NCBI GenBank assembly: GCA_963575745.1
Contig: CAUYUJ010000259.1
Span: 558,001 to 622,000 of the forward strand
Source: Prorocentrum cordatum
Taxonomy: Eukaryota
DNA: 64,000 bases
Reading direction: 5' to 3'
Below are positions 13,535 to 48,110 of the stretch, one piece after another. Positions within the stretch are counted from its first letter, which is position 1, and each line of letters starts with the position of its first letter. The translations under genes and the position numbers were made by a program. The notes beneath the pieces are model-generated. The model was not told the DNA's origin, ran no database searches, and saw nothing but the letters and a program-made list of their open reading frames with translations.

Positions 13535-13740
13535 GGGGCAACAATAGGGGGGGATAGGCACAGGAGGGGACGCATCGACCCCCAATCGCCCACTGATCGC
13601 CGAGAGGTGTCCGATAGCCCCAACCTCCCCAGGAACGTGCGGATTCACTATCGGAGGCCTATCGCCGATGTATCGGCGATGTATCGCCGATTCCAGGTCG
13701 ATGTTCCCCCCCTAGCCCTATCCTCCCCGATCGTTGCCCC
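13535..13740. mobile_element. MITE with TIRs GGGGCAAC.AT.GGGG.GGATAGG; related copy at ~14340-14645 interrupted by a TA/CT microsatellite
   Basis: The ends are reverse complements; internal sequence is shared with the second copy. Confidence 0.7.
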
Positions 13741-26230: not shown

Positions 26231-26764
26231 CCTCCTCTTTTTGGAGTTGTCGCGTCGTCGTCTCCCCCCCTTGCCCGGGCGCGCTGCTAAGCCCGCGAGC
26301 CCCCTTTTCCTAGGGCACGCGGAAGGGCCAGCAGCTGCTCACCCCTGCATTGACTTGCAGGGACTTGTAATCGTAAGGTAGCGAGACCCTCTTACCGGGC
26401 CACGTTGGAGCGCACCCCTTGAGCAACATGGCGCGCCCCCTGCCGGCCCTAGCGAGAAGGCAGGGCCTTTGCACAAGCAATCGCAGGGGATTTTGTCAGA
26501 AGCGTGCAAGGCACCAGCGTGCGCGCTTCACGCTGAACACCGTTATGCGGATGTCCTGTCCTGTCCTCCTCATCTTCCTCCTCCTCCCCCCCTCCTCCTT
26601 CCCCTCCTCCCCCCCCTCCTCGTCCGCGTGCTCCCCCCTCCATTTCTCTTCCCAATAGATAACCTTCCCTTCTCGCACTCCGAGGCCGGTCGGAAGGGTG
26701 GGCCGGTCGTTTCGCCAAAGGTTCCTCACCATGTGCACCCTGAAGCTTGAACGTTGGCAGCCGC

Positions 26765-27250
26765 TTCACTGATAGGGGGCGGGTCGTTTTTTTCAATGTT
26801 GTTTTTCTTTCGTTTCAGCGTCGCACACATTTTTTTTTTTTTTTTTTTTTGTTTTTTGTTTTTTTTCTTTTCCAAAGCAATTGTACGAACTGCACTGATT
26901 GCGAGCGGGTCGTTTTCAAAATGTGGGTTTCGCTTTAGCGCTGTGTGCATAGTTTGATTTTACTTGCAAGAGGTCCACGGATCCCCATGGTCGACGTACG
27001 AAACAATGCGCGTTGGAAAAATGTTGGATTATGAGGGCGCAACATGTACGTTGATTCGCGGTGTTGAAGTGTCAAGAACATTGTCTGGCATGACTCAGGA
27101 TCGTCAACACGCAACATTCAGATTGATTCGTGGCGTTGGAGTCCCGACAACATGTTTTGACATGCTTCAGGGTTTTCAAATGGATGTATTCCAACGACGC
27201 AGCTCCGTCAGTGAAGATGGCCCCGCTATGCGGCGAATGGAAAGGGAGTT
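26765..27250 (+). repeat. AT-richer dispersed repeat with ~60-bp internal periodicity (second copy 31480-32260)
   Basis: gcgggtcgttttcaaaatgtgg units and the tail ga.tcaggatcg..acacg.aaca.tcag...tcgtggcgttg are shared. Confidence 0.75.
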
Positions 27251-27589
27251 TTGGGGGACGGTTTATTCCAACATCGTGGAGGTTTGTTGGGTTTACACAG
27301 GTCCTCCTTCTCCTCCTCCCGCCCCCCCCCCCGTCCATGGATCGCGAGTTCGGAAAGAGCGTATTCTACCGTTGCTGGTGGAAAACCGAGGGGGGTCAGT
27401 GAGGGTTCCCAGCCCGTCTCCCCCCTTCGAAAACCGGGGGCGGTCAGTACCGGTTCGACCATCCCCCTCCCAATCCATCGCGAAACGGAGAGGGTCATTA
27501 CCGGTTCGAAACCCCCGTCTCCATCGAAACCGGGGGGGTCACTCACTACCGGTTCGAGCCCCCCCCCCTCACCGTCGGCAATCGATTTT

Positions 27590-28590: not shown

Positions 28591-29403
28591 GAGTCGTTTG
28601 CCGGCGGTGAGAGTGGGGGGGTGGTTCGAACCAGTAGTGCCCCCCCCTGGTTTTCTGGAGGAGAGGGGGTTTTGAACCGGTAGTGACCCCCTCCGGTTTT
28701 TTTTGAGGGGGGTGGGGGGTCGAACCTCGGTTTTCCGGAAGGGGGGGGGGGAGGCGGGAGGGGTTAGGGGAGGGGGGGGGTTGCCGGGGGGGAAGGGGGG
28801 GGGGGGGGGAACCCCGGGTTCCGGAGGAAAATGTGGGGGATAATTTTCCATAGTAAAGCGGCGGTGGATCATGCTCTCTACTAGTTCGGGAGTGGGGGTC
28901 CTGGCTGGCGGTGGGGGTGCGTTGTGCTGTCCTCGCGCAAGAAAGGCATTTCGTCGCAGTGGGCAGATCCCGCCTTTGCAGCACGGCTTTCGGCTGTGGG
29001 TGGCCCGACCTCTTCCCGCCGCCACGGAGCAACCAGTTCCTGAAGAGGAGGAGGAGGAGGAGGAGGAGGTGGAGGAGGAGGAGGAGGGAGAGGAGGAGGA
29101 GGAGGAGGAGGAGGAGGAGGAGGAGGAGGAGGAGGTTGGATGAATGGGGCAGGAGGGCGGGGGATGCAGGGTCGGGTGCGGACTTGAGGTGGCGTGGCTC
29201 TTGGGCTTCTGGGCGGACTTGAGGTTGGTTCGCTGGGGCCCTCCACTGGCCCTTGGCGAACAGTTTCCCTCTGGACCTGCGTGCTTCATGCCTTTGCCTC
29301 GTACAGCCCCTCTCCTGCCCGTCTTTGCCATTTGAGCAGCTGGTTCGATGGCATGTGCCACCTGACCTGAGCGGACACCCCGAGGACCTCGTAGAGGTTA
29401 CTC

Positions 29404-29972
29404 ATGTTCACGCCAGCCTCTCTCGGCCATGGGCGCCGAGGAGCCTGCTGCCGGCGGGCGAGGTTCGAGGACGGCATCGACCGCTTCACGCTGAGGTTCG
29501 CAGACCCGATGCGGGAGGACGGCTTTGCTCACGCCCACAAGGCGCCCCTGTGCAACTACACGACGCTGGCTATGGTCGCCCTTGTCGCCTCCAGCTTCCT
29601 GGGTGGCCTGATCGCCCACAGGTTCTGGGACAACGCCCAGTACCCCACGGCGGAGGCGAGGGAGCTCAGCAGGTGGCAGCTGCGCATCGGCATGATGATG
29701 ACCACACCCTGCGCCCTCGCCCTCGGGTCTGGGATACTGCTGGCCAGGTATAATATCATCAGCACGCTTGGGTTAGAAATCATCGTCGTCTCTGCCAGCA
29801 CCTGCTACATGATAGTGATGGTCATCATCCCGAAGCACTACATGGCCCGACTCTTCGGCCACGGCGACCCCGAGGACATCTGGGGCGTGGACCTGGGCGG
29901 CACCGACGGCCAGACGGTACTGTACATCGACTGCGTGGTCACCGCCTTGCACCTGCTGCTGCCCATCCGCTG
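29404..29972 (+). CDS. Kinase gene exon 1 (N-terminus, TM helices)
   Basis: FTLRFADPMRE..., hydrophobic segments; GA donor at 29973. Confidence 0.8.
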
Positions 29973-30340
29973 GATGCCGGAAACTGGAACGTATACATTA
30001 CCAGTGGCGGGTTGTCTTTCAATCCCAGGATTTTTCGAGGGTCGTGGACGACGTCGGGGTGGTGTGGTGTATACTAGTTGTCCCGTTGTCCCGGGGAAAA
30101 CAACGCCAAAGGTATACACCAGGATCCCGCATACACCAGGATCCGTTCTCCTGTGCGAATCAATGCGGGGCCGGAAAAAGCGTCGGTGTACAGTTCGGCT
30201 CCTCAGGATGATCCTCTTCCCCATGGAGGTCATCGCCGTCCTGGCCTACACGGTGCCCGCGCTGCTGCTCGGCAGTCCTGCCATGAACATCCGAGGAAGA
30301 AACAACGGCATAGGCACAAACATTCGGAGGTCCGCTCCGA

Positions 30341-30398
<58 letters not shown>

Positions 30399-33300
30399 CC
30401 ATCACCATCACCATCAGCATCATCAGCATCATCATAAACATTATCAGCATCAGCAGCATCATCAGCATCAGCAGCATCATCAGCATCATCTTCATCATCA
30501 TCACCATCATCATCCCCATGATTATCACCATCATCATCCGCTCACCATTCCAATCCCTACGCCTGGCTATCATTCCAATCATCCTCCGCCTACATGCCCT
30601 TCCTGTGGATCGGCACTGTGCCTCCTGGCGCGCTCCGCGCGCCTCAGCAGGGGAGGTCCGGCGCCGACCTAAGAAACCCGCGTGGACCTTGGGAAGCTCA
30701 CGTTCGGCACTGTGCCTTCTGGCGCGCTCCGCGCGCCTGGGAGGGAAGGTCAGGCGCCGATCTAAGAAACCCGCGTGGACCTTGGGAAGCTCATGCTTCC
30801 CAAACCCCAGTCGCCATGATGTTTTGTTACGACCTCCACCCCCCAGTGTCGGGCCGGACGAGAGGGTCCGGACGAGAGAGCAGGATAGGGAAATCTTCCC
30901 TATCCGTCCTTTCGCACCTCCCCTCGAGGGGATAGGGACCTTCCCCTATCCTTATCCTGCCCTACTTCCCTATCCCACCCTTTTTCCCCACCCTACCCTT
31001 CCCCTACGAAATTTGCCCTGCAGGGCAAATATCGTACACCCCCCTCTGAGGGGGGTGGGGGGGGGGTCACTTGCTGCATGCAGCTGGCCTCGGCCCGGCC
31101 GCCGGGCCCACTCCTCGATAACATGGGCGCCCCTCTCGGCCCCAGGAGGCTCGAGGCGCTGGGGAGTCCAGCCACGGGTGTGCTGATCCCCCCTCTTGGA
31201 CGCCCCCCTCTTGGCCGCCCCCGATGCTGGTCGACCTAAACGGTGTGTTGGCGATTCCGTGGGCCGTAGTCGGTTTGACGACGTTTTCCAGCAGAGGCGG
31301 ATTGAAGAAAAAGCGAGGGAAAGCGACGACAACACTAAACCGAGAAACATTGTTTGCGTCGATCCCTGCTTCTGCTGCTGCTGCTCCTCCTCCTCCATGC
31401 CTTTCCCTTATGAGTACATATATATATATATATATATATACAGATCATCCCTGTCGCACCCCAGGGCCGGTCGAAAGGGCGGGCTGGGCGTTTCGCTTGA
31501 TACTTCCTCACCGTTTATGATCCTGCAGCTCAGAAATTGGCAACAGTTTCACAGATGGAGGGCGGGCCGCTTCAAAATCTGGCTCTCTCTTTCGCGCCGC
31601 GCACATCCGTTGTAAACACTTGCAAGAAGTTGAAAGATTGAGGGCAGGTCGTTTCCAAAATGTGGCTCTCGTTTCAGCGCCGCGCACATTCGTTTCAAAC
31701 ATTTCGCACACAAGTTTCACGGATTGAGGGCAAGTGGTTTTCAAAGTGTGGTTCTCGCCTCAGCGGCGCGCAAATTGGTTTGAGATAGTTGCACGAGTTC
31801 ATTGTGGTTCTCGCCTTGATGGCGCGATCATTCGTTTTGAATGTGCAAGAGGTTCACGGATTGAGCGCGGGTAGTTTTCAAACGATGGTTCTCGCTTTGG
31901 CGTTCCGCACATGGTTGTTTTACTTTTGCACCAGTATCACGGGTCGAGGGCGGTTTCTATTCAAAATTTGGTTTTCGCGTTAGTGCCGCGCACATACGTT
32001 CCAAATATTTGCAAGGGGTTAATCGGTTCTCAGAGTTGACGTACCAGGTATGGTGCGTTGTAAGGATTCCGGATTGTCAGGGCCCAGTATTTACGTTGTT
32101 CTAGGTGTTGAAATCCCAGGGGTGGTGTTTTGGTACGATTCAGGATCGCCTACACGTAACAGTCAGGTTAGCTCGTGGCGTTGAAGTTCTCAGAATGGTG
32201 TTTGGGCACGTTTCAGGACTTTCACACGCTTGTCCCCCAACGGGGCTCATCTTTCAGTGGAAATGAACCCTTGTAGGGGCCTGTGAAGAGTGAGCTAGCA
32301 GGGAGGGTGTATTCCAACATCGTTGCTGGGTCTTGAGTTTGCTCTTCTCCCCCCTCCTCCTGTTCGTCCTATCTCGTGTGCCTCGGCTTGTGAGGACCCC
32401 CCAGACGCTTGTGCCGTTCTTTTCTTCCTCCAACATGGTGCCCTACAATGTCATGGGGCTCTTCCGGTAGCAAACCGTGGGAGCCTGGTACACCCTCGTA
32501 CTCCAGTCTGTTCAGTCCAGAGTGCACTGGCGCCGACTCGCGTCTGCCAATCGATGAGACAGCGCCGGTGCAGCGCCCATGGAGCGTCGACTCCGCATCG
32601 TATGAGCGCCGATTCGCACGAGCCAACAAGACATGGCGCGGGACACCCAGGCCAAGGTCCACAGGCATCCCAGGCCGCGGTTCACAGCATGAGCTTGCTT
32701 GTTGCAGGTCGGCCTGTGCGGTGTTCCCGGTCTGCCCAGCGACGCTCCGAACCGCGACGTCATCGGGTCACGAGGGATGGCTTGAGAGGGAAGGCGTGGG
32801 ACGGGGCCAGGACGAGGACAAGTCCGTTCAAGCGCGTTTCAGAACTCTCTCACAGCGTTCCATAGCGCTCGGAGCAAGCCGCGGCGCCCGAGACATCCTA
32901 CAAAGCCGCCAGATTTCAGAGATCCTCGATGAATCCCCACGCGATGTTAGATTCGTCCTGGCTTCGTCTCAGATGTCTTGCAAGGAAAAAACACATGCTA
33001 TGTCGGCCACGCGCAGATGGGGGTAGACGGGAGGGGGGGAGGCTTCTCATAACACTCCTACTTCTTGGAAGGCGCGGGCTTTATCTATAGATGTAAGGCA
33101 GGCATCTTCTAAGAAGCAGCCTCGTTCTAAGAAACAGCTTCCCTTCCCAGCCAGGAGCCAGATTAAGGGGAGCCAGTTAGAAATTGAGCCCCGCTGCCCA
33201 AAACATGGTCGGAATCACAAAAACAGGTCTGGCGTAGCTAGTGTTTTTCGGGTGACGGCAGTTCTGGTTTGGGCCAAGCGCCGGAGGCCTCGGGGAGAGC

Positions 33301-36300
33301 TCCCCGCGTGCGGAGGCGCACGCGGGCCGCGATCGCCAAGACGTCCCTTGGCGGGTGGGGGAGGAGGGAGAGGGAGGAGGAGGAGGGAGGAGGGAGGAGG
33401 AAGGGGAGGAGGAGAAGCGCGTAGAGGAGGAGGAGGAGGAGGAGGAGGAGGAGGAGGAGGAGGGAGGAGGTGGAGGAGGAGGAGGAGGAGGAGGAGGAGG
33501 AGGGGAGGAGGAGGAGGGGGAGGAGGGTTGGCAGTCCCCCGGTACACATCGCTAGACCAGGTCCCACCCAAGAGCCAGTCCTGCCAACGCCCGACCCCGA
33601 GCGCGCCGCCGGAGACGGCTTGGGAGGCTCCCACGGGTTGCCGCAGAAGGCTCCTGCTGCTCACGGTCTTCGCGGCCATAGGGCGGCGGTCCTTCGAGAG
33701 GCAGGAGCCCAGTGTCGTGTAACCCATCCCCATCCCCATCCCCATCCCCATCCCCACCATCCCCACCACCCCAGATATGCGCCTCGAAGCTCGAAGGGAA
33801 CAGCCGATGACCCCATCAAGGGAGATAAATCGGCCAGTGGTGCCCAGGCCACGCCCGTGGGGATAGTCTAGGCCTTCTAGATGGGGTCGGAGTAGATGGG
33901 GTCGGAGGATCGCGCCGCATCGGCGATACATCGCCGATGCGGCTCGATGCGGAGCCCGATTTCTCCACCGACGTCGCCGATGCGTCGCCGACTTCGGCGA
34001 TGCATCGTCGGTGCATCGCCGATGCATCGCCGATGCATCGCTGATGCATCGCCGATGTATCGCCGATGCAGCGCGATCCTCCGACCCCATCTACTCCGAT
34101 CCAATCTAGGAGGCCTCTAGATAGGGATCGGTTAAACGATGCTCAGGAGCGCCTGCTGTTCGCGGGGCTCCTGCTGGAGAAGCAGATGCGTTTCCAGGCC
34201 GAGTTCGAGCTGTCGAAGCTGGGGAAGCTGGGCAGCCGCGAGGCGCGGAGGAGGAGCAGCTTCCAGAGGAGGAGGGGGCTCCCAGACTTCGAACCGCCAA
34301 AGGACTTTCGTTTTGGTCCCCCCCCCTTGTTCTCTTCGGCGGTGACTGGGACTGGTCCTAAAACCTCCTCCTCCCTCCCTCCCTCCCTCCCTCCCTCCCT
34401 TACTCCCTCCCTCAGTCCCTCCCTCCCTCCCCCCCCCTCCCTCCCTCCCCCTCTCCCGTGTTTCTGGCACCGAGGTTTGCTGCCGCAATCCTGGGTAGCC
34501 GTCCCGCCCCCACAAGAGGAGGCAGACTGGTGGTCTGAGGGAGTCGAGGTTTTCGAAGATAACTGCTTCGGCGTGGGCTCTCCGTTGGCCCCCCTGTGCC
34601 TTTTCGGGGACGCGAGCGGGGGCGAAGATACTTCCGATCCCAGGCTCCGCAGAGTAGGGTGTGGAATTGCACAGTATTCTGACATTTCAGATAATATGCA
34701 GCTTGTTGCTTCTGTTTGGGGAGGCCTCCCTGGGCCCGTCCAGACAGTTGCCAGGGGTGAACTTTTCAGTTTCTTATCAGCGCTGATCGGTGCTGATGGT
34801 GTCACGCTCTATACCACAGATAATTCCAGTGTGTGCTCAGGATGGTATTGCGGGCGGGCCTTCGCCCCAGAGGGGGAGAACGCGGACCTTTGGTATCAGG
34901 TAGGTCAGGTGCTCAGACGAAAACCGACCTTATCCTGCACGGTCCTTTTTGTTCACTCCCACCAGGAGGCCCGAGACGTACTCCAGGGTAAAGCACCTCT
35001 GTATTTGACGGTAGGTAATGCAGCTGCTGATAAGTTGGCCGAGGCAGCGGCTCGTTTAGTACGCATCCCAGCCTCTGATAGATCGAAGGTTTTCTTGAAT
35101 GAGAAGATGGCTTTCGCCGTCCGCATGCGTATTTTACTGGCCACAGTCGAGACTTTAAAAGCCGAGGCCGCCCTGGCGGCCGAAGAGCCCCGAGGAACCC
35201 GTGTCAGGAATCCAGGGCCCAGGCCATTAGCGCCTCTGGTTTGTAAAGAGTTTTCGACCCTGCATACGCTGTCTGAAAACGGTCTTTCTTGTTTGAAGTG
35301 TAGGAGCTCCACCACTAAAGGTATGCGCAAGTTTTGGTTGGAAACCCCATGCTTTGACCTGAGGGCTATAGATGGCGTTTTGCTCAGACCGCCCCCCCGT
35401 TGCAGGGTGCACATCTGTGGGGGGTGGGCTGACGACAGTCACACATTACAGTTTCACGCTGGGCTGGGGATTTGGTTCTGTGGCACTTGTGGAAGTTTTG
35501 CGGCCCAACAGTTGGCCCAACTCGGAAAGAAGTGCGACGGCAGAGCCACAGGTAATCGTGCTGATTATTTAAAGAATATTGAACGGGGGATCTGGCCTAA
35601 AGCTTATAGCAAAGCTGACAAGGCCAGAAGAGCGGCTCGTTCTCTTTAATCGTCATCGTAACCGACACAGTCGCAATATCCGTAACTCCGTAACTCCCTC
35701 CCCCTTTCCCTCCCTCCATCTCCTCCTCCTCCTCCTCCTCCTCCTCTTTCCTCCTCTTTCCTCCTCCTTCTCCCCCCACATCTGGGGCCATGGCGGTCGT
35801 CTGCTTGCAGACTGCAGCCGCCAGGGCTTTTTTGATGATGGTCCATCAATCCCTCCTCCTCCTCCTCCTCCTCCTTCTGGACTTCTCCCCCCTAAGGAAT
35901 GGCATGAGAAGAAGATGGAGGAGGAGGAGGAGGAGGAGCAGGAGGAGGAGGAGGAGGGAAGGAGGAACAGGAGGAAGAGGAGGAGGAGGAAGGAGGAGAA
36001 GCAGGAGGAAGAGGAGGAGGAAGGAAGGGGATGAGGAGGAGGATAAGCCGCGGAACAAAATAATTAGCTACCACCTATTGTTGGGAACCCAGTCCTTCGA
36101 CAAGGCAGCCGGAATAATGTTAATTGTTTATCCTCTATTTGGGGGGGGGGTCAAGATAATTTTTCAGGGGTAGTCAAAGGATGAAAGGGCTCCCACACAG
36201 CTTCTTGTCGTTCTTTATCATGTTGGTGGGGCCTTCTGGGAGGCCGTCGTCGCCACCGCTGGATGCGCCCCACAGTTCTGGTCAGAGCGCAACCTTGGAG

Positions 36301-39300
36301 CTGTCCTGTGAGTGGGGGTATCGGTAGCTCCTGGCTTCCGCAGACATGCTCGCGCCGTGGAAAACAACAGCCAGGCGCGAGGTGTCTGACCGGGTTCGGC
36401 ATCCAGGGGCCTTCGCAGGACCTCGGGACGGTCAGCGAAAGCGACTCGCGATGAAGCGCCGGTCACGGACACGGGGTCGGGATTTCTGGGGACCGCGCAC
36501 TGCAAGCACCAGGACGTTGCATGCCTGGTGTGCCGATGTCGCTGCTCGTTCTGGAGAGGCCCCGTCTCCAGGCCCTCAAATGGGGTTGAAGCAGACGAGG
36601 TCTTCGGATCGCGCCGCATCGCCAAGGCATCGGCGATGCGGCGCCGATGCATCGCCGACGTCGCCGATGCATCGCCGACGTATGGGCGACGTGTCGGCGA
36701 TACGGCGCGTTCCTCGGACCTCATCCTCTCGGATCCCCTTTGGGATGTCTCCACCGTCGCCGTGGCCGTCCTCCCTCCCAGGTCCTGCCCAGAGCGCACC
36801 CGGTGGCAGAGGGTCCGGGGAGCAGCGGGGTGCGTCGGCACCGACGTGGTTTCCCCCAAAGAAGGCCGCGGTGGTGTCGGACCGCGGCTCCGACGAGGTG
36901 TCGTGCCCGGGGACGACCATCCGGGTGTTGTTCGGGGTTTCGGGGGCGGCAAAGAGGGGGGTGATGAGTAGGGGTGGGTGAATAGCATGGCACGGGCCAT
37001 GGTATTTCCCCAGATTTCATGGCGCCTCTTCTTATTTCAATACGTCCCTGGCCACCCCCCTGGGCCGCGCACATGCCGCCGGCCATGATTTGCGCCCCTC
37101 CCCCTCTTGGACGCCCCCCTCTTGGCCGCCCCCGAGCATTGTCTTTACCAGCCTGGAGCAAATCCCTATCCCTATGGTTGGTATCATCTTACCTCGATGC
37201 CGATCTTGAGGAGTCCCTCAGTTTCTGATGGCGCATACCTATGATTATGATTTTCCAACCTACTTTAGCTTTGATCACCAGAAAGAATTTCGGGCACCGG
37301 AAAAGTACCGAAACTCTAGTGTGTTCGCCTTTCGGGCCCTGGGAGACGCTCGTCCGACGTTGTTTCGACATTGTTTCGACACTTTCTTGGGTGCTCGAAA
37401 TTCTTTCTGGGATGTGGTCCTTAAGTACGATGGGAGCAACATCACCTTCTGATTGGTATCATCTTTCCTCGATGCCGATCTGAAGGATTCCATCAGTTTC
37501 TGAGGGCGCATCCCTCACATGGTCTACATGGTCTTTGGCTTGTCAGTCTCAGGGGTAAGGATATGTTCGGGGCTGGTTACTGTCCTGGTCAAGGGTGCCC
37601 CTGGTTTTTGGCTCTCTTTTGAAGCTCTCGGCTCTCAGGGCCTTCTTGGTTGGTGGCCTCCAAACGGTGTGATTACCAATCCGTTTGGGAAGTCAGTGGA
37701 GCTTCGGGGTCACAACACGAATTTGGGAAGCGGGGTGTTCTCCGAGGATGTCTCGGGCGGTTGGGGCCCCCAGAGTCCCAAGACCGTGCGGTGACGGACC
37801 GCGCGGTGAGGACGTTGGAGATTCCGAGATCGCCACGCGGTCCGCCACCACACGATTTTGGGACGCCCCATATTGGCCTCGTGAGGGGTGCGTTGGAGGC
37901 CATCTGGGCATCTATGGGGATCCTGGGGACACCTTTGGGCCAGGACCACTCCAAGCAACGCCCGAGCCATGAGCGCGGCGGCCTTCGACGGTGGCGCGGG
38001 GCATGCGTCCCTGGACCAGATCCGCTCCATAGGCCAGCGGGAGCACTGGCTCATCTCGGAGGAGAAAACATGCATACACATATACTTTCGGAGCTCCGCT
38101 ACCCGTCCCTCGTTTTTCGCTCCTTCGGTGCCTCATGGTATGCCCTCGTCGCCGCGGCACGATTCGCCTCGAAATCCTGGTCCAAGGGCACCCAAGGAGA
38201 GTCCCGCAGAGTACCAGTATCAGTACCAGCCTCGGATCGGCGCTGGGGCCCCCCTTGGCGGCGCCTCCGTCTCGCCCTCGGTGCGGTCCCCGCGTGCCAA
38301 AGGAGGGGTGGCCCAGCGCCGACCCGAGAGATCCAGCGCGCAGCTCCGAGAGTGTATGTTTGTGCCATGGTTTGTTCCTCCATCATCGGCAGCGGGGAGG
38401 TGGAGCTCTTGGCTGACAGGGTCCTGGGCGTCGGCGGCTTCGGCATCGTCGCCGCTGGCCTGTACCACAACACCCTCGTGGCGGTGAAGGCGCCGAAGCA
38501 GGACATCCTGAGGCTGGCCCGACCAAAACGTTGCTCTGGCAATGTCGTGGATAGCTTCCGTCTACTTGCTCTTTCCGCTCTGGGGCACCCCATTTGCCAG
38601 CCAAGACTTGGGAGTTGCGCCAAAGCGCTCGGCAACCGGTCGGACCGTTTTCGTCCTCGAACGCCCCGAACACGCAAACGGGACGCACGCGAAAAGAGCG
38701 CCGGTTTGGTCGCCCCCCCGCGCGAGGCGGGGCGCCATGGGCTCGAGCCTGCCCGAGCTCTGCAACGAGCTGAGGGTCCTGCGGCGCATCCGCCATTGAT
38801 GGGCCTGTCCTCCACCACCACCACCATGAGTTGGAGGGGGGAAGAAGGAGGAGGAGGAGGACGACTAGGAGGAGGAGGAGGAGGTGGAGGAGGACCCCCT
38901 CCCCCCTCCAACTTGTGGTGGTGGTGGCAAACGGGCCCATCAGCCATCCCAACATCGCCTTCCTGTACGGGGCGTGCATGGACGCGGCCCTCAGCAAGCT
39001 GAGCCTGGTGCTCGAGTTCGTGGACGGCGTGCCCCTGGGCGCGTTCGTCAGCGGCATGCACCCGCACGCGGAGGGTCCAGAGGCCAGGGGCCCGCCGGCC
39101 AGCGCCTCCGCGCGGTGCCTCATCGTGTCCGACATCCTGAACGTGCTCCGCTACCTCCACTCGAGGCTCAAGCAGTGGCGAAGCGTCTCGGCTCGCCTAC
39201 AGGCCTACCAAAGGAACTGTTCTAAGACCCTTTTGTGGTCTCAGCGACGTGCTCTCAGAACATTTCTGGCTGGGAAAGGCTTGTTTTAGCACAGAAGGCT

Positions 39301-40025
39301 TGCGTTCTGAGAACATTGTGTTTTTCTTAGGACATGTTGGGGTTCTAAGAGCATTCCGTGGTAGGCCTGTAGACATGCCGGGACGGTCGGTCCCTGCTCA
39401 AGAGGCAGCCTGTCATAGTCCACGGAGACCTGAAGGACTCCAACGTCTTCGTGGAGGAGCGGCGCGGCAGGACACCGCTTTTGTTTGTCTCCCTTGGCGA
39501 TGCCCCGGGCGTGCCTCACAGTGGTACGGGGGGATGGGGGGGAGGGCGCCCGCCACGTCACGGTTCCCGCCAGCGGCGTCTGGGAGTGCTCATGCCAACT
39601 CCCAGACGGGGCCGGCGCGAGTCGCGAGGTGACAGGAGGGGTGCGTGAGGCGGGGCGGGTCACGGCAGTGATCGCGAGCATCGCAGGATCCTGCAGGATC
39701 CTGCAGGATCTCGCAGGATCCTGCAAGGCCCGACGGACCCGGGCTTGGGTTGACCCGGGCCAGTGCGTCCCCGGGAGTGATAGAACAACGGGCTCTATAG
39801 GGGGGGCCAGATCTGGTACCACGCCAAGCTGCTCGACTTCGGGCTCTCGCGCCTCGTCACCCGGCGTGCCGTGCCCCTCGGCGGCACGCTGCGCTGGATG
39901 GCGCCCGAGCTGCTCACGGGGGTGGCCGTCCCCCCCGCCGCGGCCGCCGACCTGTACTCTTTCGGGCTGCTGGCCTACTTCATCGTGACCGGGCGCCGTC
40001 CTTTCGAGGGCGCGAGCAGGGACAG
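29404..40025 (+). CDS. Multi-pass membrane protein kinase (TKL/Raf-like domain), at least 12 exons; 3' exons (subdomains X-XI) not securely located
   Basis: The spliced product has ~6 hydrophobic helices, then RFQAEFELS, EHWLIGSGEV, LGVGGFG, VAVK, NELRVLRRIRHPNI, HGDLKDSN, DFG, GTLRWMAPE, ADLYSFG, TGRRPF. All exon phases are consistent with no stops. Start codon uncertain. Confidence 0.9.
30207..30290 (+). CDS. Kinase gene exon 2 (TM helix)
   Basis: cag|G ATG ATC CTC.. = MILFPMEVIAVLAYTVPALLLGSPAMN. Confidence 0.85.
30343..30540. repeat. (CAT)n microsatellite inside intron 2
   Basis: Direct inspection. Confidence 0.97.
30610..30793. repeat. ~92-bp tandem duplication
   Basis: tcggcactgtgcc...ctaagaaacccgcgtggaccttgggaagctca occurs twice. 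Confidence 0.9.
31480..32260 (+). repeat. AT-richer dispersed repeat, copy nested in intron 2
   Basis: Homologous to 26765-27250. Confidence 0.75.
32437..32457 (+). CDS. Kinase gene exon 3 (21-nt micro-exon, MVPYNVMG)
   Basis: Lies exactly between the right TIR/direct repeat of intron 2 and the left direct repeat/TIR of intron 3; keeps the frame. Confidence 0.8.
33650..33704 (+). CDS. Kinase gene exon 4 (LLLLTVFAAIGRRSFERQ)
   Basis: AG|G acceptor, GA donor. Confidence 0.85.
33870..34116. mobile_element. Palindromic MITE with AGGCCT termini and CATCGCCGATG core; copies at 36570-36750 and 45649-46124
   Basis: ~45-bp TIR aggccttctagatggggtcggagtagatggggtcggaggatcgcgc. Confidence 0.85.
34147..34242 (+). 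CDS. Kinase gene exon 5 (ERLLFAGLLLEKQMRFQAEFELSK..); 3' end at 34242 (GC donor) or 34218
   Basis: Direct repeat CAGGAGC at the acceptor; coiled-coil-like sequence. Confidence 0.8.
34457..35700 (+). mobile_element. 5'-truncated LINE 3' end encoding RNase H and C-terminal Cys motifs, inside intron 5
   Basis: FGDASGG..DPRLRR, QTVARGEL, TDN, NADLW, VHSH, GNAAADKLA; open frame to TAA 35649; visibly lower GC than its flanks. Confidence 0.88.
36865..36914 (+). CDS. Kinase gene exon 6 (AAVVSDRGSDEVSCPGT)
   Basis: AAG|G acceptor; GA donor with direct repeat GACCA shared with 37944. Confidence 0.7.
36942..37132. mobile_element. MITE with TIR GGGGCGGC.AAGAGGGGG; related pieces at ~31190-31222, ~41577-41660 and ~46125-46310
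   Basis: The ends are reverse complements. Confidence 0.7.
37655..37868 (+). repeat. Dispersed ~215-bp repeat (second copy 45664-45880, nested in an AGGCCT MITE)
   Basis: Shared gttctccgaggatgtc.cgggcgg.tgggg..gtccca..ccgtg.ggtgacggacc..caccacacg.ttttgggac. Confidence 0.8.
37944..38055 (+). CDS. Kinase gene exon 7 (..SLDQIRSIGQREHWLI)
   Basis: cag|G acceptor; pre-kinase WxI motif. Confidence 0.85.
38388..38512 (+). CDS. Kinase gene exon 8 (subdomains I-II)
   Basis: VLGVGGFGIV..VAVK. Confidence 0.92.
38727..38796 (+). CDS. Kinase gene exon 9 (subdomain III, alpha-C Glu)
   Basis: ELCNELRVLRRIRH; GC-AG intron 38513-38726 with direct repeat GAGGC. Confidence 0.9.
38948..39165 (+). CDS. Kinase gene exon 10 (subdomains IV-VIa)
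   Basis: PNIAFLYG..LVLEFVDG..LRYLHS. Confidence 0.92.
39405..39470 (+). CDS. Kinase gene exon 11 (catalytic loop)
   Basis: IVHGDLKDSNVFV; GC-AG intron 39166-39404. Confidence 0.92.
39801..40025 (+). CDS. Kinase gene exon 12 (subdomains VII-IX); 3' boundary approximate
   Basis: AKLLDFGLSR..GTLRWMAPE..ADLYSFG..TGRRPF; GA-AG intron 39471-39800. Confidence 0.92.
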
Positions 40026-40319
40026 GGTGCCAGTCCTCAAGATTGGTTTGTATGCCACACCCTCCCCACCCCGGTCAGATTCCACCACCCGCGGCCACAG
40101 TCAGTATTATACAACCACCACGCCCCATGCAGATACGTCTAGACGCTTCGCGTAACCCCACCAGCCTGTCGCGGCCCGACTAGTGTTCGGGCGGCTTTCG
40201 ACCTGCTTCGCGAGCCCGCAGACCAAAAAAGTAACCCATCAGCCCATCCAGAAACGATGCCCAAGGGAATTGCCTCGATCAGGGAAGTGGGCGGCACACA
40301 GAGGAAGGGTCCCCCAGTG

Positions 40320-43300
40320 GAGGCCTCTTTGAGCGTCTTGGGGGCCTCTGGGCGGTCCAGGACGCTTGTAGAGCGTCTTGGGTGCCTCGGAAAGCTTCTT
40401 GGGGCCTCTTGGAGGTTTCTGGGGAGCCTCTTGGAGGCCGTCTAGGCGCCTCTTGGGGCCTCTTAGGGCCTCTTGGGGCCGTCTGGGCGCCTCTTGGGGT
40501 CCTCTTGGGAGCCTTGGGAGCGCTCTTGGAGCCTTCTTGGGCCATCTTGGAACCATCTTGAGACCTCGGATGGCCATCGGAAGCGAAAAGGCGAGACAGC
40601 CAAACATTAGCCTGGCGACGGGCCCTACCGCAAGTATAAATCTAATCTTCGCCCGCGCTCCCTATGGGGCCACGAACCGTGTGAGGGGCGTGCCGACATG
40701 CGCGGCGGGGCACACAACGCGAGCGAAGACGGTAGGTCTGTGTGCGAGAGACTGAGAGCGCGTTTGTCTGATTGTGGATGGGTTTGCGCGCGTGAATCTA
40801 CGTGCGTAAAAAATCGACGCCCATGTCGGCGCGCCTCTCACGAGGATCGCGCCTGTTTCCTTCCCGTTATTTAATCGCTTCGCTCATTCCGCCGGCCCGT
40901 ATTGTGCCATCGCAGGCGTTTGCTTGCGCGTTCGTGGCCTCTTGGAGCCTCGGTGGGGCCGTTTGGGGCCTCTTGGCGCCTCTTTTTAGGCCTCTTGGAG
41001 AACTCGGGAGGCCTCCAGGGGGCCTCCTGAGCTCTCGTGACGGTCTCTTGGGGGGCTTTCGGCGGGCTCTTGGCGGTATTTGTTGGTCCTCTTGGGGCCT
41101 GGGGCCTGACGTTGTTGGTCCTCTTGGGGCCTCACGGGAGCTTATTGGGGCGTCTTGGGGGTGTCTTGGAGAGTCTCTTGGGGCCTCTTTCGGGGTCCTG
41201 GGCGCCTTCTGGGGCGGAGGGCTCGATTTTTCAGTTCTCGGTTTCCTTCTTGAGCCCCTCTTGGGCCTGTGAGGACCCGCTGTTCAAGATGCACATCGCG
41301 GGGGCGACTAAAGACAGGCGTGGTGATGCTTCGTTGTTCTTGGCATCGTTCTATCAGGGGCACTTCAAGGACCTGCCGAAAGAGGCTGCCCGAGAAGTGC
41401 GAGATCCTGTGTCCGTCCACAGCCCTGCGGCTGACGAGACCTGCCGTGCTTGCCGCGGGGAGCCGTGCACGAGCGGTGTGGCGCCAGGACGTCCGACTTG
41501 CCCGAGGGTCGGCGGACGCCTCGCCGACCGCCTCTGGCCTGATATCAAGATCGATGGGCCACGAGGCGATACGCGCGGGCGGCAGAGAGGGGGGTGATGA
41601 CTAGGGGGACGTCATGGCGGGGGCCATGATATCTCCCCAGATTTCGTGGCGCCTCTTCTGATTTCACTGCGTCCCTGGATCTCCCCCTAGGCCGCGTCTT
41701 GGGGCCTCTTGGTCCGCCTTGGGCAGCACTTGGGCCGTCTGGGAGGCGCTCTTGGGCCGCTCCGGGGCCGTCTTGGGAGCCTCGTGGGCCGTCTTGGAGC
41801 AGTCTTGAAGGCCTCTTGAGCCCTCTTGGAGCGTCCGGAAGCGAAAAGGCCAGAACGCCAAAAAACATCGAACAAAACCAATGAAAATCAACGATGTTGG
41901 CAACTTGGGGCCCTCTTCGGAGGCCTCTTGGAAGGCCCTTGGAGCGTCTTGGAGGCCTCTTGGGCTGTCTTGGGGCCATCTGGGGCGTCTTCGGGCGATC
42001 GTTGGCCGTCTCGGGCCTCTCTTGGACCGTCTAGAAAGCTTCTCGGGGCCCTTTTGGACCGATCTGGAGCCCTCTTGGACTCCGAAACAGAACTCCGGCA
42101 TCTCTGACCCGACCTTGCCGGGGTACTTTTCGCCCGGGGACCCCCAGGGGCCGCCCCGCGCGCGCGAACTAGAAATATTGTTAACCAGGCGCCGGAGATC
42201 TTAGCACGCCCTGGCCCGTTGGGCCGGCGAATTTTTCTCCTTGTTTGTCCGTGCGCGCCCACGTCCAAGGGTGCGGGCGCGGCGCCGCACGGAGCCCCCG
42301 CGACTCGCGCAGGTCGCCCCGAAGGGGTCCCGGCGACGCGCGCGGGTCGTCCGCTGCGCGGGGCAGAGCGAGCGAGCAGGCTGGCTCCCGCCTGGGATGC
42401 GCGGCCCGAAAGCGGCCTCAACACGTCGAATACGACGAAACACTTCCAGAAACCGAAAGTCGCTGCTATGCGAACTCTTCCACTGGGCCGCCACACGATT
42501 TCCGCCACAGAGACCTTAGACGGAGCTCCCTATGGGGACACGAAACGTACGAGGGGCGCAATGGGGCCACGAAGTGTGTGATGGGGTGTGCCAGAATGGG
42601 TCGGCGGCGCCATGCGGGCTGCGCCAGTGTGACCGTCGGTGGAGCTACCTATGGGGCCACGAAGCGTGTGAGGGGTGTGCCAAAATGGGGCGGCGGCGCC
42701 ATGCGGGCTGCGCCTTTAGGGCCTTAGGTGGAATTTCATTATGGGGCCACGAAACGCTGTACTGAGTGGATGAAACGCAGGGAGGAGGTTGGGTGGGGGA
42801 GGAGGAAAAAGGAAGGAGGAGGAGGAGGAGGACGAACACGCGGGGACCGTCTCTTCAAAACGAGGACCCAACACCACAGGATGGTAGGGACAAACATTGA
42901 TATTCGCAAGGTGTTGGACAGATGTTGGCCTGTTCGGGGCCTCCTGGGGGGGGTTCTCTGGCCACTTGGAGCCGTCTTGGAACGGTCTTGGGGCCTCTTG
43001 GAGCATCGTGGGGGCAATCTTGAGGCATCTTCGGATCGATTGGGCCATCTTGGGGGTCATCCTGGGCTCCCCCAGGCGCTCCCCCCACCCCCCAGGAAAC
43101 CAACACGTGGCCAAACCAATCGTAAAATCAGTGATTCTTTGGTTTACGCCGCGCCGCCGGCCCCTTGGGGTTCCTGGTAGGTCTCTCGGGGGCCTCCTGG
43201 CAGCACTTTGAGACCTTTTGGGGGCCGTTTTGGGGCCGCTTTTGGGCCTCTGGCCCCTTGGGTGCTTCTTGGGGGCTGGATCTCGCGCCGCGCCTCTCGG

Positions 43301-44620: not shown

Positions 44621-46514
44621 GTGCCATGCCACGGCGTGCAATGCAATTCTAGGTTGCGTTCCGTTGCGCGATGCCATGCCTTCAGCTGAAGCTGTGATAC
44701 GCAGCGCTTAAGTGCCGCGTCGTGCTATGCCAGGCTACGCTTAGATTTTCAACGCCATGCTATGCAATGTTACGTTCGGGGCCGCTGTGCGATATCATGC
44801 TTTGCGTTGCAAAGCTTTGTGATGCAATTCTTCACCACGCCACGCCACACCATGCTGTGACATACTACGCTTTGCGGTGCTCTTCTACGCCATGCCACGC
44901 CGTGCTCTACAATGCATCGCGTACCCTTTCGGGATCATTGCCCTGGTTGACATCCGACTGTGCGAACAGAGAGGGGATCTACGCCATGGTAAGGGATGGG
45001 AGGGAGGGGTGGGATGTCAGATATGACGCGAAGGCACTTAGCTTGTCGTCCTCTTCCTCCTCCTCCTCCTCCTCCTCCTCCTCCTCCTCCTCCTCCTCCT
45101 CCTCCTCCTCCTCCTCATATTCCTCCTCCTCCTCCTCCTCCTCATCCGCGTCCTCCTCTTTCCTCCTCCTCATATTCCTCGTCGTCCCCTCCTCCTCCTC
45201 GTCGTCGCCCTCCTGTCCGCTCAATCGTCGCGGCACCCAACCCAATGCCGCGGCGATTTAACTCCGCAGTTAAGTCTGTGCCTGGCTGGGACGCGCGGCG
45301 TGGGATTCACTTAACTCCGAAGTTAATTCGTGTACTAGCTGGTGCGTCCGCCAGCTTGGCGGCGACTTACCTCCGGAGTTAAGTTTTTCCGCGGGGTGGC
45401 CTTTACCCCGGAATCAGGCCGACTTAACTCCGGAATTCAGTCTTGGATAACCTCCCGGTTTCCGTCGCTTCCCTCCTCCTCCTCCTCCTCCCTCCTCCTC
45501 TTCCTCCTCCTCCTCCTCCTCCTCCTCCTCCTCTCCTCCTCCTCCACCTCCATCTCCTCCCCCCCCTCCCCCTCCTCCACCTCCTCCTGTTCGGATCGCC
45601 GGCGGCCCCAGGGAAAACCGTGCACCCCCTTTTGGTCGGCCAAGATCCGGGCCTCCCAGACCAGGGGACCCCCAAACGGGGTGGTGACCACACCGTGTGG
45701 TGAGTCGGTGGGGATTCGGAACCGCTGCGCGGTCTTGGGATTCGGGTCGTTCTCCGAGGATGTCACGGGCGGCTGGGGCCTCCAAGGTCCCAAAGCCGTG
45801 TGGTGACGGACCCTGTTGTTATGTCTTTTGGGATTTCGAGGTCACCGCCGGGTCTGTCACCACACGGTTTTGGGACCCCCAACAGATGGGGTCGGAGTAG
45901 ATAGGGTCGAAACGTCGCGCCGCATCGCCGATGCGTCGGCGATGCGGCTTGATGCCGAGCCTGTCTCTCGCCACGCCGACGGCGCCAACGCATCGCCGAC
46001 ATCGCCGGTGCATCGCCAATCCATCGTCGATGTATCGCCGATGCATCGGCGATACATCGGCGATGCATCGGCGATGCGGCGCGATCATTCGACCCCGCTT
46101 ACTTCGAGCCCATTTAGGAGGCCTCGGCAAGAGAGGGTGAGAGGGGTGATGACTATGTGTTGGTATCATGGCTGAGCGGAGATCTTCTTAGCTTTCATGG
46201 CCCCTCTTCTTCTTTTGAATGCGTCCCCCTGAGCCCCCCCTCGTCCGTGCAAATGCCTCGGGCCATGATTTGCGGACCCCCCTTGGGCGCCCCCCTCTTG
46301 GACGCCCACAGCCCCTCTGGCAGCGTCACGATTCGAGCACCCACCCCTTGGGACCCCCCCCTGACCCCCTTCTGGGCGTCAACCCTCTGAGGCCCCCTCC
46401 CCCCCGGCGGGGAAAGGATCAAAGAGAATGGGCTTCCTTTCGACTCAGCTACGACGTTGCTCGATGTCGGTTTGTCTGGTGCGCTTGAGGAGGAGGGCCC
46501 AGGGGAAGGGAACG

Positions 46515-46896: not shown

Positions 46897-47756
46897 GAGG
46901 AGGACGAGGAGGAGGAGGAGGAGGAGGAGGAGAAAGAGGAGGAGGAGAAGGAGGACGAGGACGAGGACGAGGAGAAGGAAAAGGAGGACGAGGAGGAGAA
47001 AGATGATGGTGCTGATGCTGATGATGATGCTGATGCTGATGATGACGATGATGATGCTGATGATGATGCTGATGATGCTGATGCTGATGCTGATGTGGAT
47101 GATGATGATGATGATGCTGCTGACGATGATGATTACGCTGGTTATGATGCTGGTGATGCTGATGTTGATGATGATGCTGACGATGCTGCTGATGATGCTG
47201 ATGCTGATGATGATGCTGCTGATGCTGATGATACTGCTGCTGATGATGATGCTGATGATTATGACGATGATGATGCTGATGATGCTGATGCTGCTGATGA
47301 TGATGCTGGTGATGATGATGCTGCTGATGATGATGATGATGATGCTGCTAATGATGATGCTGATGATGATGACGATGATGACGATGATGATGACGATGCA
47401 GCTGCTGATGATGATGCTGATTATGATGCTGCTGATGATTCTGATGATGATGCTGATGATTATGCTGATGCTGCTGATGATCATGCTGATGATGATGATG
47501 ATGCTGCTAATGATGATGATGATGATGATGATGATGACGATGATGATGATGATGCTGATGTTGCTGCTGATGCTGATGCTGTTGCTGATGAGGATGATGC
47601 TGATGATGCTGATGATGCTGCTGCTGATGATGATGCTGATGATACTGCTGCTGATGATGATGATGATGCCCACGACGACGATGATGCTGATGATGCTGAT
47701 GATGCTGATGGTGCTGATGCTGATGATGATGCTGATGCTGATGCTGATGATGGTGG

Positions 47757-47809
<53 letters not shown>

Positions 47810-47810
47810 C

Positions 47811-47866
<56 letters not shown>

Positions 47867-48110
47867 TGATGATGATGATGATGATGCTGATGCTGATGTG
47901 ATGATGTGATGGGAGGCGGGGGGAGGGGAGGAGGAGGAGGAGGAGGAGGAAGAGGAGTTGGAGGAGGAGGAGGAGGAAGAGGAGGAGGGAGCAGGAGGAG
48001 GAGGAGGAGGAGAAGGAGGAGGAGGCGGAGGAGGAGGACGAGGATTTGGGAGGAGGCGGAAAAGCAGGGGGAAGATGAGCAGGAGGAGGACGAGGAGGAG
48101 GAGCAGGAAG
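46515..48110. repeat. (GAC/GAG)n and (GAT/GCT)n trinucleotide microsatellite complex
   Basis: Direct inspection. Confidence 0.97.

What the first reader, a model, noticed from the sequence alone, without database searches (positions are those of the whole stretch)
30291..32457. 2.1-kb insert with an AT..AC-readable register, followed by a 21-nt micro-exon
Seen: AACAT|CCGAGGAAGAAACAACGGCATAGGC ... GCTTGTGCCGTTCTTTTCTTCCTCC|AACAT. The only recognisable dinucleotide pair is AT..AC (30289-32434), but the U12 donor ATATCCTT is absent. Its ends (GAGGA..TTCCTCC) resemble those of 38056-38387, hinting at one element family that yields non-canonical introns. It has absorbed a CAT microsatellite and several repeats without losing the terminal stem. 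The following exon is only 21 nt and is defined by stems on both sides.
Basis: partly seen in the sequence, partly recalled or inferred. Interest (0 to 1): 0.72.

Follow-up and report, generated by a model that had tools for sequence, protein, structure and literature searches.

The report
Transposon-type intron lacking normal splice sites
A 2.1-kb hairpin-ended transposon sits inside a coding exon of a dinoflagellate kinase gene with no usable standard splice sites, so it is either cut out by an unusual stem-guided route or has broken this gene copy.

Summary
The window matches Prorocentrum cordatum. A 2141-nt element (30291-32431) has imperfect terminal inverted repeats and a perfect 5-nt direct repeat AACAT (30286-90, 32432-36). 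It interrupts the conserved motif LLLGSPAMN|MVPYNV of a membrane-kinase gene. Removing 2146 nt restores the family sequence with the spacing seen in 18 of 19 relatives. None of the 6 equivalent registers is G[T/C/A]..AG. AT..AC exists, but U12 motifs are absent.

The 332-nt insert at 38051-38387 belongs to the same element family. Of the gene's 11 homology-defined introns:
- 10 have 4-7-nt direct repeats.
- 7 have significant terminal inverted repeats.
- 4 (J2, J6, J7, J9) have no canonical register; all 4 share CAT in the repeat.

The deposited annotation mis-splices here (30314-33646), skipping the micro-exon and giving a truncated 236-aa product. A near-identical sister-copy protein reads exactly across all four sites.

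Best reading (about 0.5): an introner-type MITE removed as a stem-defined non-canonical intron, as in Amoebophrya. Main rival (about 0.28): an unspliced insertion in a decaying duplicate. The kind is known; it is unreported for a core dinoflagellate.

The parts
29404..40029 (+). Host gene: 12 homology-defined exons (1680 nt, 560 aa, no stop) of a transmembrane N-domain plus protein-kinase family of Prorocentrum cordatum
   Evidence: Exon 1 is 100% identical to CAK0789574.1 (P0013). 424 of 426 aligned residues are identical to the sister copy P0048.
30207..30288 (+). Exon 2 (…MILFPMEVIAVLAYTVPALLLGSPAMN), which ends in the left direct repeat
30286..30290 (+). Left copy of the 5-nt direct repeat AACAT (target-site duplication)
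30291..32431 (+). Element E1 (2141 nt). With one repeat copy it forms intron J2 of 2146 nt. It has no G[TCA]..AG register.
30293..30310 (+). Left terminal inverted-repeat arm, purine-rich (GAGGAAGAAACAACGGCA)
30343..30538 (+). (CAT)n microsatellite inside E1
   Evidence: 82% matches, score 238
30610..30793 (+). 93-nt tandem duplication inside E1
31537..32218 (+). Arrays of about 83-86-nt units (5-6 copies) and 72-nt units (3 copies) inside E1. The wider stretch 31454-32361 is 66-72% identical to window 26673-27317.
32412..32430 (+). Right terminal inverted-repeat arm, pyrimidine-rich (TGCCGTTCTTTTCTTCCTC)
32432..32436 (+). Right copy of the direct repeat AACAT
32435..32457 (+). Micro-exon (MVPYNVMG): 23 nt in the AT..AC and GC..AG registers, 21-26 nt depending on the register chosen
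32458..33649 (+). Intron J3: GC..AG, direct repeat GGCTC, inverted arms 32470-32486 and 33625-33641
   Evidence: p=0.0013; 28 terminal pairs
30314..33646 (+). Intron of the deposited model P0013 (GC..AG). It starts inside E1's left arm, skips the micro-exon and shifts the frame (…NNGIEGSCCSRSSRP*).
36917..37970 (+). Intron J6 (1050 nt) with direct repeat CCAT. It has no G[TCA]..AG register.
   Evidence: TIR p=0.12, duplex p=0.008; 16 terminal pairs
38051..38387 (+). Element E2 (38056-38382, 327 nt) with direct repeat TCATC, forming intron J7 (332 nt). Same family as E1; no canonical register.
   Evidence: p=0.0003; z=-5.62
38792..38947 (+). Intron J9 (151 nt) with direct repeat GCCAT and roughly 40-nt inverted arms. 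No canonical register.
   Evidence: (0 of 3000 random pairs reach its score)

Best explanation
E1 is a non-autonomous TIR DNA transposon: MITE-derived, later swollen by microsatellite and tandem-repeat growth. It inserted into a coding exon of a P. cordatum membrane-kinase gene and duplicated the 5-bp target AACAT.

To make the family-conform protein, the element plus one repeat copy (2146 nt) has to leave the transcript exactly. No G[T/C/A]..AG pair exists in any allowed register. I therefore think it is removed as a stem-defined non-canonical intron. In this reading the two TIR arms, a purine-rich 5' arm and a pyrimidine-rich 3' arm, pair and bring the two AACAT copies side by side. This is the arrangement described for Amoebophrya introner elements.

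Three other introns of the gene (J6, J7=E2, J9) would use the same route. All four can be written C|AT…C|AT.

Shown: the transposon anatomy, the family link to E2, the lack of canonical sites, and the exact restoration of the conserved sequence on excision.
Inferred: that excision happens in RNA, and that the stem guides it.
For: - Anatomy: 5-nt repeat plus arms (p=0.0003). The terminal stem survives in the full-length MFE fold with 28 pairs.
- Excision product: AMNMVPYNVMG has exactly the spacing of 18 of 19 family proteins that cover the site; P0048 has one extra P. One of the 18 is the EukProt record P0050.
- Registers: 0 of 6 are G[TCA]..AG.
- Cryptic alternatives: all 13 in-frame cryptic G[TCA]..AG alternatives replace conserved residues.
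- Gene-wide pattern: 10 of 11 introns carry 4-7-nt direct repeats, against P=0.022 per random pair. 7 of 11 have inverted ends at p<=0.006.
- Two repeat classes: the repeats of the 6 repeat-flanked canonical introns all contain GG, while the 4 non-canonical ones all contain CAT. The chance of any trinucleotide being shared by 4 random exon repeats is 1e-3 (post hoc).
- Age: arm divergence of the non-canonical introns (about 80%) resembles that of canonical J10. E1 and E2 ends are only about 77% alike. This argues for old rather than fresh insertions.
- Exons: all 12 exons remain open and collinear.
- Sister copy: P0048 is 424/426 identical and reads exactly across J2, J6, J7 and J9. Four independent exon insertions since so recent a split would be very unlikely.
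- Precedent: non-canonical introns with 8-20-nt inverted and 3-5-nt direct repeats are RNA-supported in Amoebophrya (PMC7789003, passages).
Against:
- The only deposited model of this copy does not remove E1 precisely.
- Annotated P. cordatum donors are 99.9% GT/GC/GA. P0048's locus therefore probably lacks these four introns. That fits an uninterrupted ancestral state as well as it fits a processed copy.
- The C-terminal roughly 250 residues of the family are not found downstream. There is only a marginal collinear hit at 41415-41531 (E=0.54), so the copy may be decaying.
- Open frames are weak evidence in 60% GC DNA.
- Core dinoflagellates are reported to have nearly universal AG acceptors (PMC12584245, passages).
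- The shared CAT could be a transposase target preference.
Confidence: 0.5

Rival explanations
1. E1 (with J6, E2 and J9) is an unspliced insertion. This gene copy would be a redundant, decaying duplicate knocked out by MITE insertions, and the sister copy would keep the uninterrupted exons.
For: - The deposited models of this copy are two fragments, P0013 (236 aa) and P0054 (204 aa), and the middle exons are unannotated.
- C-terminal exons are missing or diverged.
- The family has many truncated members.
- MITE-like TIR+DR elements also lie outside exons: 21 candidates against 1-4 in 6 shuffles.
- The annotation pipeline allows only G[TCA]-AG, so P0048 most simply comes from a locus without these inserts.
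Against: - It needs four exon hits by at least three different TIR types within 1.68 kb, in the time that produced only 1 substitution and 2 indels between the copies.
- Arms and family members are about 20% diverged, which does not look like a fresh burst.
- There is no frameshift or stop in 12 exons.
Confidence: 0.28
2. The ordinary spliceosome removes the region through cryptic canonical sites. One option is the annotated GC 30314 .. AG 33646, which skips the micro-exon and truncates the protein. The other is GC 30259/30280 .. AG 32404, which writes TLVPFFSSS into the protein.
For: - The donor ATAG|GC at 30314 has the AG|GC context of this gene's good donors.
- 13 in-frame, stop-free alternatives exist for J2.
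- P0013 is built this way.
Against: - The acceptor at 32404 is AG|A and the annotated one at 33646 is AG|A. All 7 canonical introns of the gene use AG|G.
- Every alternative destroys the conserved PALLLGSPAMN motif.
- The annotated junction shifts the frame.
Confidence: 0.15
3. It is a U12-type AT-AC intron removed by the minor spliceosome.
For: One register reads AT..AC (30289-32434).
Against: - The 5' splice motif RTATCCTY and the branch motif TCCTTRAY are absent.
- The three sibling non-canonical introns end in CC, TC and CC rather than AC.
- Minor-spliceosome parts were reported absent in Amoebophrya and other alveolates (PMC7789003, passage).
Confidence: 0.02

Closest known systems
Introner elements / non-canonical introns of Amoebophrya A25 and A120 (Farhat et al. 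2021, PMC7789003; passages read)
   Same: - 8-20-nt inverted repeats at both intron ends.
- 3-5-nt direct repeats over the boundaries.
- No fixed terminal dinucleotides.
- A hairpin that joins the exon ends.
- No transposase inside.
   Different: - The host here is a core, free-living dinoflagellate.
- RNA support is missing here.
- E1 is 2.1 kb, against 120-240 nt on average.
- The four cases here share a CAT-containing repeat.
Introner elements in annotated P. cordatum introns (Dougan et al. 2023, PMC10666404; passages and supplement passages)
   Same: Same genome and same definition (IR 8-20 nt, DR 3-5 nt within 30 nt of the ends). They were reported in 2.4% of introns.
   Different: That survey covered only annotated introns, all GT/GC/GA-AG. 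E1, J6, E2 and J9 have no such register and are not annotated as introns in this copy.
Introner-like element classes of Polarella and Symbiodinium (Roy et al., bioRxiv 10.1101/2020.10.14.339549; parts 1-2 of 4 read)
   Same: TIR elements with 3-8-nt target duplications create introns. The neighbours J5 (AGGC), J8 and J10 (GAGGC) and J3 fit the published AGGH / NAGGH patterns.
   Different: All published classes recruit GH..AG from the duplication or the element. E1's AACAT and its ends offer none.
Nonconventional introns of euglenids (PMC12501133 passages; PMC3935182, PMC4770533, PMC6221363 search listing and abstract starts only)
   Same: Variable non-canonical borders, a stem joining the intron ends, 'slidable' direct repeats, and a suspected MITE origin.
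   Different: The Euglena code N3-CDG…CH'G-N5-6|R is not present in any of E1's 6 registers (read off). The lineage is unrelated.
Identically repeated intron boundaries of dinoflagellates (Mendez et al. 2015, PMC5032977; passages)
   Same: 2-9 identical bases at both boundaries, found once in the mRNA.
   Different: Those repeats always contain GG, often AGG. E1's repeat does not.

Membership tests
Introner element (Farhat 2021 / Dougan 2023 definition) | Inverted repeat of 8-20 nt within 30 nt of each intron end | tested here: met
   A 10-nt perfect block plus a 7-nt block, starting 2 nt and 1 nt from the ends. Score p=0.0003.
Introner element (Farhat 2021 / Dougan 2023 definition) | Direct repeat of 3-5 nt over the boundaries | tested here: met
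   AACAT at 30286-90 and 32432-36.
Introner element (Farhat 2021 / Dougan 2023 definition) | Is an intron, that is, absent from mature RNA | not testable with these tools
There is only indirect protein evidence.
Non-canonical intron sensu Farhat 2021 | Boundaries other than the canonical dinucleotides | tested here: met
   0 of 6 registers are G[TCA]..AG.
Introner-like element classes of Roy et al. | GH 5' site and AG 3' site recruited from the target duplication and/or the element ends | tested here: not met
   Not met for J2, J6, J7 and J9. Met for J1, J3, J4, J5, J8 and J10.
MITE / non-autonomous TIR DNA transposon | Terminal inverted repeats flanked by a target-site duplication | tested here: met
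MITE / non-autonomous TIR DNA transposon | No transposase gene inside | tested here: met
   0 Pfam families in the 11 ORFs of 120 aa or more that overlap E1.
MITE / non-autonomous TIR DNA transposon | Multiple related copies in the genome | tested here: inconclusive
   2 copies in 64 kb (E1, E2). nhmmer found no further ends in the window. No whole genome is held.
U12-type AT-AC intron | 5' splice site RTATCCTY and branch site TCCTTRAY near the 3' end | tested here: not met
   Neither motif is present. The 5' end reads ATCCGAGG.
Euglenid nonconventional intron | Code 5'-N3CDG…CH'G N5-6|R (PMC12501133) | tested here: not met
   Positions 4-6 of the six registers read ATC, TCC, CCG, CGA, GAG and AGG. 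None is CDG.
Dinoflagellate identically repeated intron boundary (Mendez 2015) | Identical 2-9 nt at both boundaries that contain GG/AGG | tested here: not met
   A repeat is present (5 nt) but has no GG. The gene's 6 repeat-flanked canonical introns all have GG.

The most novel reading that the evidence does not exclude
Core dinoflagellates, not only the parasitic Amoebophrya, would have a second, stem-guided splicing route. It would remove MITE insertions lacking GH..AG, possibly with a C|AT…C|AT junction rule. Because current pipelines accept only GT/GC/GA-AG, such introns would be systematically missed. Genes like this one are then split into truncated models, which would inflate the counts of fragmentary and 'dark' genes in giant dinoflagellate genomes.
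Probability: 0.4. Interest if true: 0.8.

Novelty: new member of a known kind. Interest (0 to 1): 0.55.

Why it matters
If these four inserts are spliced, P. cordatum would be the first core dinoflagellate with Amoebophrya-type non-canonical introners. My searches of the held library found no such report for Prorocentrum or other core dinoflagellates; most subscription-journal papers are not in that library.

That would make testable whether stem-guided removal of transposons is an old dinoflagellate trait. It would also explain part of the fragmentary gene models in a 4.75-Gb genome. This locus is a clean test case, because canonical and non-canonical introners sit side by side in one gene and a near-identical sister copy is available for comparison.

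If they are not spliced, the locus is an ordinary MITE-riddled pseudogene, and the lesson is limited to an annotation error.

Tried and rejected
- **Sequencing runs.** 14 runs hold 6-13% of the sampled words of 29300-39299. I could not lay any run, so these shares are no evidence of expression or splicing.
- **Metagenome contigs.** The protein scan with P0048 gave 68 pattern matches but no relative. An exact search with the 22-nt micro-exon gave 0 hits.
- **Whole genome.** None is held, so the sister locus and genome-wide copies of the element could not be read.
- **Earlier findings.** The search of earlier findings returned nothing in 3 look-ups.
- **More family copies in the window.** An nhmmer profile of the four ends matched only those four ends. 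E2 has no blastn hit outside itself.
- **De novo DR+TIR scan.** It was too strict to recover J2, J3, J7 or J10; of the gene's introns only J9 passed. I therefore did not use it to compare insertion densities in exons and introns.
- **Rfam, 29000-41000.** 0 matches at gathering score.
- **Pfam on 220 ORFs of 120 aa or more.** Nothing in E1.
- **C-terminal exons.** tblastn and a family profile found nothing convincing after 40029.
- **U12 and Euglena splice codes.** Not met.
- **Supplements.** The supplement tables of Dougan et al. (Tables S1, S2) were not held as text. Only a note and the review file were seen.
Full report
**Where the window comes from.** The window is about 60% G+C and no whole genome is held for it. 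Exon 1 of the gene at 29404 translates to a protein (P0001) that is 100% identical over 190 residues to P0013. P0013 is CAK0789574.1, an unnamed protein product of Prorocentrum cordatum. The next relatives are P. cordatum proteins of about 820 aa. They have an N-terminal membrane domain and a protein-kinase domain, and are 51-68% identical over exon 1.

**The observation.**
- The sequence reads AACAT|CCGAGGAAGAAACAACGGCATAGGC … GCTTGTGCCGTTCTTTTCTTCCTCC|AACAT.
- The direct repeat lies at 30286-90 and 32432-36. The element proper is 30291-32431 (2141 nt).
- Arm 30293-30310 pairs with arm 32412-32430 (17 matches, 1 mismatch, 1 gap). Of 3000 random pairs at the same spacing, 1 reached this score.
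- The end-to-end duplex is -35.0 kcal/mol, against a null mean of -20.9 (p=0.03 of 600).
- In the MFE fold of the whole 2165-nt RNA, 28 pairs still join the first and last 40 nt.
- Inside lie (CAT)n at 30343-30538, a 93-nt duplication, an 86-nt array and a 72-nt array.
- Stretch 31454-32361 is 66-72% identical to 26673-27317, upstream of the gene.
- None of the 11 ORFs of 120 aa or more that overlap the element matches a Pfam family.

**The gene around it.** I anchored exact 5-residue matches of three guide proteins on the window, then scored every split point. The guides were P0048, P0050 and P0054. This gives 12 exons (29404-40029; 1680 nt, 560 aa, no stop) and 11 introns. A profile of 12 paralogues finds the same exons in order.

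Excising 2146 nt at E1 gives …LLLGSPAMNMVPYNVMGLLLLTVF…. Of the 19 family proteins that cover this site, 18 have exactly this spacing; P0048 has one extra P. One of the 18 is the EukProt record P0050.

The six registers allowed by the repeat are AA..CC, AC..CA, CA..AA, AT..AC, TC..CA and CC..AT. None is G[TCA]..AG. U12 motifs are absent.

The micro-exon is 32435-57 (23 nt), or 21 nt if the whole right repeat is given to the intron. The next intron (32458-33649) is GC..AG, with repeat GGCTC and inverted ends (p=0.0013).

**All introns of the gene.**

| Intron | Direct repeat | G[TCA]..AG register | Inverted-end test | Terminal pairs in MFE fold |
|---|---|---|---|---|
| J1 | GGATG | yes | p=0.68 | 18 |
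| J2 (E1) | AACAT | no | p=0.0003 | 28 |
| J3 | GGCTC | yes | p=0.0013 | 28 |
| J4 | CAGGAGC | yes | p=0.0003 | not folded |
| J5 | AGGC | yes | p=0.69 | not folded |
| J6 | CCAT | no | p=0.12 (duplex p=0.008) | 16 |
| J7 (E2) | TCATC | no | p=0.0003 | 38 |
| J8 | GAGGC | yes | p=0.0063 | not folded |
| J9 | GCCAT | no | 0 of 3000 | 35 |
| J10 | GAGGC | yes | p=0.0013 | 34 |
| J11 | 1 nt only | yes | p=0.32 | 0 |

- Ten of 11 introns carry direct repeats of 4-7 nt. For random position pairs P(repeat of 4 or more)=0.022, so 10 of 11 has P about 3e-16.
- Seven of 11 have inverted ends at p<=0.0063.
- Seven introns have a G[TCA]..AG register, all with AG|G. Four have none (J2, J6, J7, J9).
- The repeats of the six repeat-flanked canonical introns all contain GG.
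- The repeats of the four non-canonical ones all contain CAT, and each has an AT..NC register. The chance that four random exon repeats share any trinucleotide is 1e-3 (post hoc).
- The J7 RNA folds at z=-5.62, and 0 of 100 shuffles fold as well.

**One family.** E1's left 18-mer matches the right end of E2 (38363-80, minus strand) with 3 mismatches. Expected hits were 0.06, and 0 of 100 shuffles gave two hits. Sixty-nt end comparisons, against 5000 random pairs:

| Pair | Score | p |
|---|---|---|
| E1-left / E2-left | 33 | 0.0018 |
| E1-left / E2-right | 27 | 0.0030 |
| E1-right / E2-right | 19 | 0.024 |
| E1-right / E2-left | 17 | 0.059 |

No further copy lies in the window. Because the arms are inverted, either orientation presents a purine-rich 5' arm and a pyrimidine-rich 3' arm in the transcript. 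This follows directly from the sequence.

**What the deposited annotation does.**
- P0013 equals 29404-29972 + 30207-30313 + 33647-33681. It reads into the left arm, uses GC 30314 and AG 33646, skips the micro-exon, and ends frameshifted after 236 aa.
- P0054 equals 38978-39165 + 39405-39476 + 39801-40155.
- The exons between these two models are unannotated in this copy.
- The published pipeline accepted GT, GC and GA donors only, and annotated donors sum to 99.9% (PMC10666404, passages).
- That paper reports introner elements in 2.4% of annotated introns (supplement passage).

**Sister copy.** P0048 (CAK0828692.1, from another contig, in the same 90% cluster) is identical at 424 of 426 aligned residues. 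It has one extra P and one E-to-Q change, then a 1-nt frameshift relative to the window. It reads exactly across J1-J9, including all four non-canonical sites. I could not read its DNA.

**Weighing the readings.**
- *For RNA-level removal:* the precise product is the only one that keeps the conserved motif, since all 13 cryptic canonical alternatives for J2 alter it. Arm and family divergence of about 20% looks old. Four fresh exon hits by at least three TIR types since a split that left two residue differences is very unlikely. Amoebophrya shows that such introns can be removed (PMC7789003, passages).
- *Against:* no RNA was seen. The copy lacks recognisable C-terminal exons, with only a marginal collinear hit at 41415-41531 (E=0.54). 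Open frames mean little at this G+C content. P0048 is most simply explained by a locus without the inserts.
- *Weights:* non-canonical intron 0.5; dead insertion 0.28; cryptic canonical splicing 0.15; U12 0.02.

**Comparison with what is known.**
- The anatomy meets the introner-element definition (inverted repeat 8-20 nt, direct repeat 3-5 nt).
- It fails the published dinoflagellate introner-like classes, which all recruit GH..AG (bioRxiv 10.1101/2020.10.14.339549, parts 1-2 of 4).
- It fails the GG-containing boundary repeats (PMC5032977, passages).
- It fails the U12 motifs and the Euglena code (PMC12501133, passages).
- A 2024 review and a 2025 Amphidinium paper describe only GT/GC/GA-AG for core dinoflagellates (PMC11453091; PMC12584245). 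Aranda et al. note some C-initial donors in S. kawagutii (PMC5177918, passage).
- My four searches found no report of such introns in Prorocentrum.

Noticed in passing
window 52372-54927 and 56028-57704 (+): An 852-aa ORF has a weak DUF6570 match (E=8e-4, below the curated cut-off). A 559-aa ORF has a PIF1-like helicase domain (E=3e-14). Together they look like a Helitron-type element downstream of the gene.
   Followed up: no
window 33870-34116, 36577-36742, 45911-46088: Palindromic satellite built on CATCGCCGATG-like units. The arms at 33870-33940 and 34046-34116 are 71 nt long and 93% complementary. Copies lie in introns J4 and J5 and at about 46 kb.
   Followed up: partly
window 31189-31224 and 37100-37135: A 36-nt stretch inside E1 is repeated at 100% identity inside intron J6. 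Weaker copies lie at 46277-46307 and 36940-36961. Shared nested repeat of unknown kind.
   Followed up: no
window 34045-35649 (+): A 534-aa open frame starts upstream of exon 5 (in intron J4), reads through the exon and runs far into intron J5. It has no Pfam match. It could be a nested mobile-element gene or a chance frame in GC-rich DNA.
   Followed up: no
window 13532-13743, 45786-45878, 62806-62959: Short elements (212, 93 and 154 nt) with strong inverted ends (scores 37-46) and 4-5-nt direct repeats TCTTT, CCAA and GTCTG, outside the kinase gene. They are MITE-like insertions of other families.
   Followed up: no
window 41415-41531 (+): Marginal hit to family profile positions 585-625 (E=0.54), collinear with exon 12 and containing the C..P..RP motif. 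It may be a diverged next exon. The conserved Cys-rich C-terminus of the family was not found in the remaining 22 kb.
   Followed up: partly
window 47000-47915 (-): A long imperfect ATG/CAT-type microsatellite block, 79-86% identical to the (CAT)n tract inside E1.
   Followed up: no
window 38978-40155 and 29404-33681: The public annotation splits this one gene into two unrelated models (P0013 and P0054) and leaves seven exons unannotated. Many family members in the database are similarly truncated at 91-570 aa, which may reflect the same problem.
   Followed up: partly
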